Source: a virus. From it: DNA of 64,000 nucleotides. Numbering within the stretch: position 1 is the stretch's first letter; every line of letters starts with the position of its first letter. The stretch covers positions 1 through 64,000 of the IMG/VR virus record IMGVR_UViG_3300036852_000742. One strand, written 5' to 3'. Shown here piece by piece: positions 40,762 to 42,615 of the stretch. The notes under the pieces were generated by a model. The model saw only the letters and a list, made by a program, of their open reading frames with translations. It was not told where the DNA came from and searched no databases. Made by a program: the position numbers and the translations under genes.

Positions 40762-42615
40762 GTGGCAATGGCGATCGCAGCGCCCTTTCTCTGCGAGCCA
40801 CATGGTGAGCTTGCACGGCCAGACAATGATCTCGTGGCAATGGCGATCGCAGCGCCCTTTCTCTGCGAGGCGTCAGGACGTCAGCTACTACAGGTCTCCG
40901 TCCGAGTGACAACGGCGAGCGCAGCGCCTCGAACTCTGCGAGCGGCCATGTCTACAGAGGCCGGCGCATCGTCGGTTCGACGCGACAATGGCGAGCGCAG
41001 CGCCTCTTTCTCTGCGAGTGCGCCATGGGTTTACGCGGACTCCTGGCGAGGTACGTGACGACGGCGAGCGCAGCGCCTCAAATCTGCGAGGTCCGGGCTG
41101 TCGCGTTCGTCATGGGTGACGAACGCGATCGCAGCGATCCTTCTCTGCGAGTACGTCGACGACTCCGGCGCCGAGGCGAGGCGGTTCAAGTGGCAATGGC
41201 GATCGCAGCGCCCAAAGACTGCGAGCTTAGCTCCTCGTCGTAGTACCCCTGCACTGCAAGGTGGCAATGGCGAGCGCAGCGCCTGAAATCTGCGAGCCGG
41301 TGATTCGGTGCGGCCGGCGTTGGGTGGTACCTGCATGTGACCATGGCGAGCGCAGCGCCTCAACTCTGCGAGAAGGGGCAGGGCCTGTCGCGCGTACCAG
41401 GCCCGCGCGGTGACCATGGCGAGCGCAGCGCCTCAACTCTGCGAGTCCCGCCAGCTTGACTACCCGCTAGCCTGGATCAGGCCGGTGACCATGGCGAGCG
41501 CAGCGCCTCAACTCTGCGAGTCTCCACCGGCGTCATGCTCACTTCGCGCAACCCCAAGGTGACCATGGCGAGCGCAGCGCCTCAACTCTGCGAGGAGGGT
41601 CTCCCGTAGCAGCTCGGTGCAGCGTGACAACGGCGAGCGCAGCGCCTGAAATCTGCGACGCTATATCGTGAAGCAGGCGCACCATTATGAGCGTGGTGAC
41701 AATGGCGAGCGCAGCGCCCCTCTTTCTGCGAGTACCTGAACCACGCCCGAGCGGCTTCCGTTGCCTGCGGCGTAGCAACGGCGAGCGCAGCGCCCTTTTT
41801 CTGCGAGTGCGTGTGCGGCGAGGCCGCAGTACTGACGCGACAGTGGCGAGCGCAGCGCCTAAAACCTGCGACTTGGTATCCCGATCCAGGCGGCCCGTGA
41901 GACCGCGTAAGTGACAACGGCGACCGCAGCGCCCTTTCTCTGCGAGGCTGCAATGAGTAACTACATGGATGTCCGGCGCAGGTAACGATGGTGATCGCAG
42001 CACCTCAAAACTGCGAGTGGATGGTCCCGATGTTGGTCGTGATCGAGGGCGCCGCGCGTGACAATGGTGATCGCAGCACCTCAAACTGCGAGGTCGTCAG
42101 CCGCACGGACGCGGCAAGGTTTGAGACCATGAGCGACAATGGCGATCACAGCGCCTCAAAACCTGCGAGCTGGATGCGGCGGCGGAGCATCTCCGCGTCG
42201 CGCGTACCGGCGACAATGGCGATCACAGCGACCACAAACTGTGAGATCCTCTCAACCGGTGCTAGCTTGCGCGCGACCGGTTGCGTGACGATGGTGATCG
42301 CAGCGCCCAAAACCTGCGAGCACGGCAGCGCCTCCAGCCCGACCGGTTGCGCGACGACGGTGAGCGCAGCACCCAAGAAGACACTGCGAGTTCGAGTACG
42401 TGTCGGCTCCTCCAAGGGCGACATGGGCGACGATGGTGAGCGCAGCGCCCAAAGTCTGCGAGTGATGGGGTGGCGCGAGCAGTACGACCGCATGCAGGTG
42501 GCAATGGCAATGGCGATCGCAGCGCCCAAAACCTGCGAGTCCATAGCTTGGATGGGTTACCACTCCGCGCTACGGCGCGACAACGGTGATCGCAGCGCCC
42601 CAACGATCCTGCGAG
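40762..42615 (+). CRISPR. CRISPR array, 26 degenerate repeats and 25 spacers
   Basis: Repeat consensus approx. GTGACAATGGCGAGCGCAGCGCCTCAAnnCTGCGAG (35-42 nt, mostly 36) starting at 40762, 40834, 40906, 40982, 41055, 41116, 41190, 41261, 41337, 41410, 41485, 41559, 41624, 41696, 41772, 41837, 41911, 41982, 42058, 42133, 42210, 42285, 42351, 42427, 42498, 42577; spacers 25-40 nt; 3' CGCAG/CTGCG stem. Confidence 0.95.

What the first reader, a model, noticed from the sequence alone, without database searches (positions are those of the whole stretch)
40798..42576. Several spacers read as sense-strand fragments of accessory or mobile-element genes
Seen: spacer 8 (41297-41336) translates PVIRCGRRWVVPA, spacer 6 (41152-41189) YVDDSGAEARRF, and spacer 24 (42463-42497) MGWREQYDRMQ. 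Spacers 13 and 17 are only about 53-54% GC, below the surrounding DNA. Known: PVxRxGRRWVVP resembles the wing motif of actinobacterial HTH_17 excisionase-like proteins, and YxD(D/E)SG is the N-terminal motif of DUF3800 proteins. For dCas12a, guides matching the sense strand (binding the template) block elongation best. Inference, from short motifs only: the targets may be defence-island genes and excision functions of competing integrated elements or satellites.
Basis: inference. Interest (0 to 1): 0.75.

Follow-up and report, generated by a model that had tools for sequence, protein, structure and literature searches.

The report
Phage Cas12m spacers hit mobile islands

Summary
The coordinates, translations and GC values are correct. 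The stretch is the 25-spacer body of a 26-repeat array just downstream of a 683-aa Cas12m2-like effector (type V-M, not dCas12a) on an 81-kb siphovirus-type provirus from a soil metagenome.

No protospacer was found for the three named spacers (S6, S8, S24). The resemblance of S8 to the HTH_17 wing is real but weak (array-wide P about 0.07). DUF3800 could not be tested.

Two other spacers do have protospacer-like matches, both in one Micromonosporaceae MAG (G477). Both start at spacer nt 1 and both have a 5'-TTN flank.
- S18 matches 27/28 and 35/40 nt with a TTG flank. It lies inside a 311-aa tandem winged-helix ORF on an integrase/TniQ/transposase island. Its reverse translation is 12/12 identical to a family member.
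- S21 matches 18/18 seed nt with a TTC flank. It lies over the RBS and a palindrome upstream of a small ORF.

Both are antisense to the adjacent gene. Codon-based strand calls split 13:12, so there is no sense-strand rule.

The target class (accessory genes of mobile elements) is partly supported. The most likely function is silencing between mobile elements, which is already described for V-M systems. This is a new member of a known kind. The scan also noted this phage-borne Cas12m locus in other first-stage notes on the same DNA.

The parts
38582..40633 (+). Cas12m2-like effector, 683 aa (type V-M)
   Evidence: PDB sequence search: Cas12m2 8hhl E=4e-73 and GoCas12m 8pm4 E=1e-70. Pfam Cas12f1-like TNB domain. 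In the alignment, His363 aligns with Cas12m2 His317, and four of five TTN-PAM contact residues are kept (Tyr141, Trp152, Asn156, Gln195; Gln197 is Met here).
40634..40761 (+). leader-like non-coding stretch between the effector stop and the first repeat
   Evidence: Read directly; no ORF. Not tested further.
40762..42615 (+). CRISPR array: 26 repeats, 25 spacers; the repeat 3' stem CGCAG..CTGCG abuts each spacer
   Evidence: Nearly every repeat differs in its loop; R1=R2 and R9-R12 are identical.
41152..41189 (+). spacer 6 (YVDDSGAEARRF in frame 1)
   Evidence: Translation. The frame is favoured by the codon model. No protospacer found; its many BLAST hits fall in unrelated genes and lack TTN.
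41297..41336 (+). spacer 8 (PVIRCGRRWVVPA in frame 1)
   Evidence: Translation. The frame is not favoured by the codon model. HTH_17-wing look-alike, array-wide P about 0.07. No protospacer found.
41660..41695 (+). spacer 13, 53% GC
41947..41981 (+). spacer 17, 54% GC
   Evidence: Its first 22 nt are absent from viral contigs.
42018..42057 (+). spacer 18: located source, antisense fragment of a 311-aa tandem winged-helix accessory gene family
   Evidence: G477:C427:21444-21483(-): 17/18, 27/28 and 35/40 nt identical, 5' flank TTG. The reverse complement encodes AAPSITTNIGTIH, 12/12 identical to homologue P0010.
42246..42284 (+). spacer 21: located target, the RBS/palindrome region upstream of a 104-aa ORF
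   Evidence: G477:C385:596-631(-): 18/18 seed nt, then a 4-nt indel, then 15/17; 5' flank TTC. TTN+seed with at most 1 mismatch occurs in 1 of 361 family genomes; the reversed control gives 0.
42463..42503 (+). spacer 24 (MGWREQYDRMQ from 42465); its last 6 nt are probably a GGCAAT duplication of the repeat's 5' end
   Evidence: Translation. The frame is favoured by the codon model. Its first 22 nt are absent from viral contigs.
43357..44865 (-). TnpB / IS605 OrfB gene just downstream of the array
   Evidence: Pfam OrfB_IS605, HTH_OrfB_IS605 and TNB domains.

Best explanation
The spacers are the guide set of a prophage-borne type V-M CRISPR-Cas12m system.

How it most likely works: the array is transcribed in the same direction as the effector. 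Each crRNA keeps the repeat's 3' stem-loop followed by the spacer. Cas12m binds double-stranded DNA next to a 5'-TTN motif, pairs over roughly the first 17 nt of the spacer, and stays bound without cutting. This blocks transcription or replication of the bound element.

At least two guides (S18, S21) are aimed at accessory DNA of island- or plasmid-like mobile elements of Micromonosporaceae. One sits inside a gene; the other lies on the ribosome-binding site and an operator-like palindrome of a small operon. The most likely role is competition between mobile elements inside the lysogen.

Shown here:
- effector homology to Cas12m2;
- array anatomy;
- two PAM-flanked matches;
- the gene-family origin of S18.

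Inferred:
- binding without cleavage;
- silencing as the outcome;
- Micromonosporaceae as host;
- the targets of the other 23 spacers.

There is no rule that spacers read as the sense strand.
For: System identity:
- The effector matches solved Cas12m2 at E=4e-73, with His at the first RuvC position and 4 of 5 TTN-contact residues kept (residue roles from PMC10442227).
- The contig is a phage: terminase, portal, capsid/protease, tape measure and endolysin. IMG/VR classes it as a provirus.
- The closest portals are in Micromonospora prophages, 58-59% identity.

S18:
- G477:C427 matches 27/28 PAM-proximal nt and 35/40 overall, with a TTG flank.
- The mismatches are the family's own variants: His to Asn and Ala to Ser. 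The spacer peptide APSITTNIGTIH equals P0010 at 12/12 residues.
- The same element is 99.97% identical in JGI soil contig Ga0075420_100000714.
- The gene lies in a PadR-DUF2314-target operon, on a 67% GC contig that also carries two tyrosine integrases, TniQ, a Mutator transposase, a group II intron RT, and radical-SAM/CYTH/EEP genes.
- The family has only 13 clusters among 5.8 billion proteins. It has relatives on 13 Streptomyces plasmids and 1 Arthrobacter plasmid, and none in phages.

S21:
- 18/18 seed nt with a TTC flank, in the same MAG. The site is non-coding and covers AGAGGA and a CAACCGGT..ACCGGTTG palindrome 3 nt upstream of a GTG start.
- The match is unique among 361 family genomes, with 0 control hits.

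Control against chance: none of about 43 chance-level BLAST hits has a TTN flank, and none exceeds 79% full-length identity.

Literature:
- V-M systems are enriched on plasmids, occur in some prophages, and silence by binding (PMC11656645).
- Promoter targets repress better than coding targets, and only 17 nt engage the target (bioRxiv 10.64898/2026.10.26.761838).
Against: - Only 2 of 25 spacers are located, both in one fragmented MAG and neither perfect over its full length. The true targets may be relatives of what I found.
- G477 carries neither the phage nor Cas12m, so coexistence of system and target in one cell is not shown.
- Nearly every repeat differs and no adaptation genes were seen next to the locus, which fits an old, possibly idle array.
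- The functions of both target genes are unknown. The fold search gives only weak tandem winged-helix matches.
- No expression data are available.
- The middle RuvC residue is ambiguous in the alignment (VLVGDED against VLVDDTS), so loss of cleavage is inferred, not shown.
Confidence: 0.6

Rival explanations
1. Anti-defence CRISPRi: the phage uses Cas12m to switch off host or island-borne anti-phage genes so that it, or its induced progeny, can replicate.
For: - The S18 target family gives repeated weak matches to the PADLOC candidate PDC-M14B: 4 of 12 members for each of two models, best single E=9e-7.
- Its contig also carries radical-SAM, CYTH and EEP genes.
- Relatives of both target loci sit beside Gabija-like ATPase+UvrD genes on plasmids.
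- S21 sits on a promoter-proximal site, the most effective place for silencing.
Against: - The PDC-M14B matches are marginal and cover only the C-terminal half. No PDC-M14A partner lies nearby.
- The predicted fold is a tandem winged helix plus a helical bundle, with no enzymatic domain.
- PDC systems are themselves untested candidates.
- The other 23 spacers are unassigned.
Confidence: 0.15
2. Fossil array: an old, adaptation-less array inherited with the effector. Its spacers are relics and no longer do anything.
For: - Almost every repeat differs.
- Only 4 homologues of the effector were found among 5.8 billion proteins.
- 23 of 25 spacers have no match in phages, plasmids, about 1,200 genomes or the related phages.
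- The matches that exist are decayed distally.
Against: - The effector ORF is intact, with Cas12m2 motifs.
- Repeat stems are kept despite loop drift, including a compensatory CACAG..CTGTG change in R21.
- The located matches are perfect or near-perfect exactly over the about 17 nt that Cas12m uses.
- Blocks of identical repeats (R1=R2, R9-R12) suggest recent turnover.
Confidence: 0.15
3. One reading: spacers are mostly sense-strand gene fragments, so that the guide binds the template strand and blocks elongation. S8 would come from an excisionase-like HTH_17 gene and S6 from a DUF3800 gene.
For: - The S6 and S24 frames are the best-scoring coding frames.
- The S8 peptide is the top HTH_17-wing look-alike among 150 frames.
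- Seven spacers have an ATG at positions 3-7 on the sense strand followed by an open frame.
Against: - Both located spacers are antisense.
- Strand calls split 13:12, with 77% calibration accuracy.
- The S8 look-alike has array-wide P about 0.07, and its frame is not favoured by codon usage.
- No Pfam match and no pattern match in viral contigs.
- The sense-strand ATG of S18 is not a start codon.
- DUF3800 is absent from the five genomes tested.
Confidence: 0.07
4. The S18 and S21 matches are chance similarities in GC-rich DNA.
For: - Chance hits of 44-52 bits are common in these genomes. One is a perfect 24-nt match of the distal part of S18 to an unrelated hydrolase gene.
- BLAST E-values are optimistic at 68-72% GC.
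Against: - Both matches start at spacer nt 1, both have TTN, and both lie in the same genome. Of about 43 noise hits, 0 have TTN.
- S18 has 12/12 peptide identity to a second family member.
- TTN+S21 seed occurs in 1 of 361 genomes, with 0 control hits.
Confidence: 0.03

Closest known systems
Type V-M CRISPR-Cas12m2 (Thermithiobacillus-type Cas12m2, PDB 8HHL; GoCas12m 8PM4)
   Same: Homologous effector across WED/REC/RuvC/TNB (E=4e-73). Repeat of about 36 nt with a 3' stem next to the spacer, and the array downstream of the effector. His at the first RuvC position. A TTN flank on both located targets. The matches are best over the first 17-28 nt, as expected from the 17-bp heteroduplex.
   Different: The effector is 683 aa rather than 596 aa, with extra segments. 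One PAM contact is changed (Gln197 to Met). It is carried on a siphovirus-type provirus rather than a plasmid. The array is long (25 spacers) and almost every repeat has a different loop.
Plasmid-borne type IV and V-M systems used in inter-plasmid competition
   Same: An interference-by-binding system carried on a mobile element, without adaptation genes nearby, whose located spacers hit accessory or regulatory DNA of other mobile elements, one of them at a promoter-proximal site.
   Different: The carrier is a temperate phage. The targets found are island or plasmid accessory genes of unknown function, not conjugation or replication genes.
Phage-borne CRISPR arrays and mini-arrays that target related phages
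   Same: A CRISPR array carried by a virus.
   Different: No spacer matched the structural region (portal +/-10 kb) of the 80 closest viral contigs or any of 50,697 phage records. The located targets are non-phage elements.
Engineered dCas12a CRISPRi
   Same: A type V effector with a T-rich 5' PAM that represses by roadblock.
   Different: A different Cas12 family. Natural rather than engineered loss of cleavage is presumed. The template-strand rule is not reflected in the two located spacers.

Membership tests
Type V-M CRISPR-Cas (Cas12m) | Effector homologous to Cas12m, with RuvC split by a zinc-finger TNB domain | tested here: met
   8hhl Cas12m2 E=4e-73 over residues 4-222 and 251-671. Pfam PF07282 TNB at 30.4 bits, above the 26.3 cut-off.
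Type V-M CRISPR-Cas (Cas12m) | CRISPR array beside the effector; repeat of about 36 nt whose 3' hairpin precedes the spacer | tested here: met
   26 repeats starting 128 nt after the effector stop, with the stem CGCAG-loop-CTGCG-AG at each repeat's 3' end.
Type V-M CRISPR-Cas (Cas12m) | 5'-TTN PAM on the strand identical to the spacer | tested here: met
   TTG (S18) and TTC (S21), against 0 of about 43 chance hits. Only two targets.
Type V-M CRISPR-Cas (Cas12m), clade 2 | Non-canonical His-Asp-Asp RuvC triad, DNA binding without cleavage | tested here: inconclusive
   His363 aligns with His317 and the DQDR Asp aligns with Asp579. The middle position is ambiguous (VLVGDED against VLVDDTS). Activity cannot be tested here.
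Type V-M CRISPR-Cas (Cas12m) | No adaptation module in the locus | tested here: inconclusive
   The ORFs scanned on either side have no Cas1/Cas2 domains: YdjM-like, two ORFs with no Pfam match, and TnpB. The whole contig was not scanned for cas1/cas2.
Arrays for competition between mobile elements | Spacers match other mobile elements rather than the host core genome or the carrier itself | tested here: met
   S18 and S21 match island- or plasmid-type accessory DNA. There is no self-target in the 81-kb contig. 23 spacers are unassigned.
HTH_17 (PF12728) excisionase-like gene as the source of S8 | Match to the PF12728 profile, or a protospacer inside such a gene | tested here: inconclusive
   No Pfam hit at E<=10 on 21 aa. 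Best look-alike among 150 frames, but array-wide P about 0.07. None of the 19 HTH_17 genes of G477 is matched at DNA level.
DUF3800 (PF12686) gene as the source of S6 | Match to the PF12686 profile, or a protospacer inside such a gene | tested here: not met
   No Pfam hit. The back-translated pattern is absent from viral contigs. DNA hits of S6 lie in unrelated genes. No DUF3800 gene in the five genomes searched.
Template-strand (sense-spacer) roadblock rule | An excess of spacers identical to the coding strand | tested here: not met
   2 of 2 located spacers are antisense. The codon model gives 13 plus against 12 minus.

The most novel reading that the evidence does not exclude
A temperate actinophage uses a natural CRISPRi system to switch off defence or regulatory operons carried on its host's mobile islands. 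Its guides would be selected to sit on promoters, ribosome-binding sites and the first codons of genes. This would explain S21 lying on an RBS/operator, and the unexplained excess of ATG at spacer positions 3-7.
Probability: 0.15. Interest if true: 0.8.

Novelty: new member of a known kind. Interest (0 to 1): 0.45.

Why it matters
Type V-M systems are known mostly from plasmids, and few natural targets have been described. Here a phage-borne copy can be tied to two concrete, PAM-flanked targets in a likely host family. This gives a testable pair (effector plus TTG/TTC targets) for asking whether prophages police other mobile elements, or silence island genes, by DNA binding alone. It also shows that motif-reading of 12-residue spacer translations is unreliable: the located spacers were not the ones that looked like known proteins, and both were antisense.

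Tried and rejected
Searches that found no protospacer:
- Self-targeting: no spacer or 18-nt seed (up to 4 mismatches) with a TTN flank anywhere in the 81-kb contig.
- Whole array against 50,697 phage records and 72,556 plasmids (blastn, E<=10): only chance-level hits. The best was S22 against a Streptomyces plasmid DUF6884 gene, and that alignment runs into the repeats.
- Portal +/-10 kb of the 80 closest viral contigs: nothing.
- Viral-contig pattern scans for S6 and S8 (back-translated), S18, S21, S17 and S24: all empty.
- 401 class-level and 401 order-level genomes: only noise.

Leads examined and dropped:
- The best S8 hit in G477 is the antisense of a membrane protein.
- The perfect 24-nt match of the S18 tail in G963 is an unrelated hydrolase-like motif.
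- The idea that spacer 5' ends derive from repeats: not significant.
- The idea that the ATG excess comes from TTN context: rejected, 5.2% against 4.6%.

Target function and population checks:
- The fold search on the S18 target gave only weak tandem winged-helix matches. PHROGs and NCBIfam gave nothing for the target proteins.
- The source soil run holds the array without variants. A 35-nt partial match to S18 with 4 mismatches lacks the seed. No RNA holder is listed.

- Wu et al. 2022 is not held in the paper library.

Full report
**What is there.** The interval 40798-42576 is the spacer-bearing body of a CRISPR array (40762-42615) with 26 repeats of 35-40 nt and 25 spacers of 25-41 nt. Almost every repeat has a different loop, but all keep a 3' stem CGCAG..CTGCG followed by AG and then the spacer.

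The array starts 128 nt after the stop of a 683-aa ORF (38582-40633). This ORF matches solved Cas12m2 (8hhl, E=4e-73) and GoCas12m (8pm4, E=1e-70) and carries the TNB zinc-finger domain. In that alignment His363 aligns with the non-canonical His317 of Cas12m2, and four of the five residues that read the TTN PAM are kept (residue roles from PMC10442227). The system is therefore type V-M, not a dCas12a.

The contig is an 81-kb IMG/VR provirus from a soil metagenome. It has terminase, portal, capsid/protease, tape measure and endolysin. Its portal is closest to Micromonospora prophages, at 58-59% identity. A TnpB gene follows the array.

The three translations are exact, and S13 and S17 have 53-54% GC. 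The spacers as a set are less GC-rich than the contig: 65.0% against 68.7%, P=0.005.

Are the translations meaningful? A codon-usage model trained on the phage's own genes calls the right strand for 77% of true coding fragments. Pfam finds nothing for 21-22-aa translations around the three spacers. Back-translated patterns and exact seeds have no match in viral contigs.

S6 hits many actinomycete genomes, but in unrelated genes and frames and without a TTN flank. It is simply a common GC-rich word.

I compared all 150 six-frame spacer peptides with 30 genuine HTH_17 domains from five genomes. S8 frame 1 scores highest, and a real example reads ..GGRWVVP... Random fragments reach that score at 0.3%, which is about 7% for an array of 25. 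This is suggestive, not established. DUF3800 could not be tested, because none of the five genomes has one.

**Real targets.** The whole array was searched against phages, plasmids, the contig itself, 80 related viral contigs and about 1,200 actinomycete genomes. This gave noise except in one Micromonosporaceae MAG, G477.

*S18 (42018-42057).*
- It matches G477:C427:21444-21483 on the minus strand at 27/28 PAM-proximal nt and 35/40 overall, directly preceded by TTG.
- The site lies inside a 311-aa ORF, and the spacer is antisense to it.
- The mismatches are the family's own variants. The spacer's reverse complement encodes AAPSITTNIGTIH, and the homologue P0010 reads APSITTNIGTIH, a 12/12 match. 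S18 is therefore a genuine fragment of this gene family.
- The family is rare: 13 clusters, from Micromonospora species and soil metagenomes. It has 25-33% identical relatives on 13 Streptomyces plasmids and 1 Arthrobacter plasmid, and none in phages.
- In G477 the gene is the third in a PadR-DUF2314-target operon. The contig has 67% GC and also carries two tyrosine integrases, TniQ, a Mutator transposase, a group II intron RT, and radical-SAM, CYTH and EEP genes. The same element is 99.97% identical in a JGI soil contig.
- The predicted structure (pLDDT 79) is two winged helices, a disordered linker that contains the target site, and a helical bundle. Fold matches are weak.
- Several members give marginal matches to the PADLOC candidate PDC-M14B, with no partner gene nearby.

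*S21 (42246-42284).*
- It matches G477:C385:596-631 on the minus strand: 18/18 seed nt, then a 4-nt indel, then 15/17, preceded by TTC.
- The site is non-coding. It covers AGAGGA and a CAACCGGT..ACCGGTTG palindrome, and its PAM lies 3 nt from the GTG start of a 104-aa ORF.
- The next ORF, 243 aa, has relatives on Rhodococcus (60%) and Rathayibacter (44%) plasmids. In Rathayibacter it sits beside Gabija-like ATPase+UvrD genes.

**Are these chance?** Chance hits of similar BLAST score are common in GC-rich genomes; one is a perfect 24-nt match of the distal part of S18 to an unrelated gene. However, none of about 43 such hits has a TTN flank or exceeds 79% full-length identity. TTN plus the S21 seed, with up to 1 mismatch, occurs in 1 of 361 family genomes with no control hit. 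The S18 peptide identity is independent confirmation. I put S18 at about 0.9 and S21 at about 0.8 as true relatives of the real protospacers.

**Mechanism.** Published work shows three things about Cas12m. It binds TTN-flanked DNA through a 17-bp heteroduplex and does not cut (PMC10442227). It represses promoters more strongly than coding regions (bioRxiv 10.64898/2026.10.26.761838). V-M systems are enriched on plasmids and occur in some prophages, where they are read as weapons against other mobile elements (PMC11656645).

The two located targets fit this picture. They are perfect or near-perfect over the first 17-18 nt and decayed beyond, and one lies on a promoter-proximal site. I therefore read the array as the guide set of a prophage-borne silencing system aimed at rival island or plasmid elements in Micromonosporaceae (confidence 0.6). 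G477 holds neither the phage nor Cas12m, so coexistence is inferred.

**Comparison and novelty.** The locus meets the tested features of type V-M. It differs by its carrier (a siphovirus-type provirus), its larger effector, one changed PAM contact and its unusually drifted repeats. Phage-borne V-M and competition between mobile elements are both already described, so this is a new member of a known kind.

Other first-stage notes of this scan flagged the same locus as a phage-borne Cas12m system with drifted repeats. I confirm the effector identity and the repeat pattern.

**Left open.**
- Seven spacers carry an ATG at positions 3-7 on the guide-sense strand with an open frame behind it. About one is expected, and the window-corrected P is about 0.002. 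Neither PAM context nor repeat-derived sequence explains this, and S18's ATG is not a start codon.
- 23 spacers have no located target.

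Noticed in passing
window 40798-42576 (spacers S1, S3, S4, S17, S18, S20, S24): ATG occurs at spacer positions 3-7 on the guide-sense strand in 7 of 25 spacers, each followed by a frame open to the spacer end. About 1 is expected; P is about 0.002 after correcting for all windows and both strands. TTN context and repeat similarity do not explain it. S18's ATG is not a start codon.
   Followed up: partly
window 42246-42350 (S21, S22): S21 holds a perfect 8-bp inverted repeat, CAACCGGT-N15-ACCGGTTG. Its target in G477 has the same palindrome with a 4-nt shorter loop, over an RBS. 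S22 ends with nearly the same 13 nt as S21 (..CGACCGGTTGC).
   Followed up: partly
window 42124-42132, 42418-42426, 42497-42509: The 3' ends of S19, S23 and S24 look like partial duplications of the repeat's 5' end (GACCATGA, GCGACATGG, and a GGCAAT duplication at R25). Some spacer/repeat borders are therefore blurred by slippage.
   Followed up: no
window 41337-41594 and 40762-40869: Four consecutive repeats (R9-R12) are identical to each other, and R1=R2, while all other repeats differ. This suggests blocks of different age or recombination between arrays.
   Followed up: no
window 43357-44865 (-): A full-length TnpB/IS605 OrfB gene lies about 740 nt downstream of the array, next to its distant relative Cas12m.
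   Followed up: no
L208 (G520:C1:8245300-8249520) and L209 (G483:C19:112609-116829): Four Micromonosporaceae genomes encode Cas12m homologues at 43-45% identity. Two of them have a two-repeat mini-array whose 39-nt spacer is 37/39 identical between the two species, which hints at a fixed, perhaps regulatory, guide.
   Followed up: partly
window 40798-42576: The first 17 nt of the spacers average 62.4% GC and the remainder 67.1%, against 68.7% for the contig.
   Followed up: no
L152/L138 (G477:C427:1-27437): The contig holding the S18 target is 63-72% GC in 1-kb windows. It combines radical-SAM, CYTH and EEP genes with two integrases, TniQ, an 808-aa unknown ORF, a group II intron RT fragment and a Mutator transposase, which makes it a mobile accessory island.
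   Followed up: partly
window 41055, 41700, 42311, 42342 (run X1): Other contigs of the source soil run join repeat-like stretches of the array to unrelated sequence (loose ends of 93-255 nt). These could be further arrays with similar repeats in the same sample, or assembly breaks.
   Followed up: no
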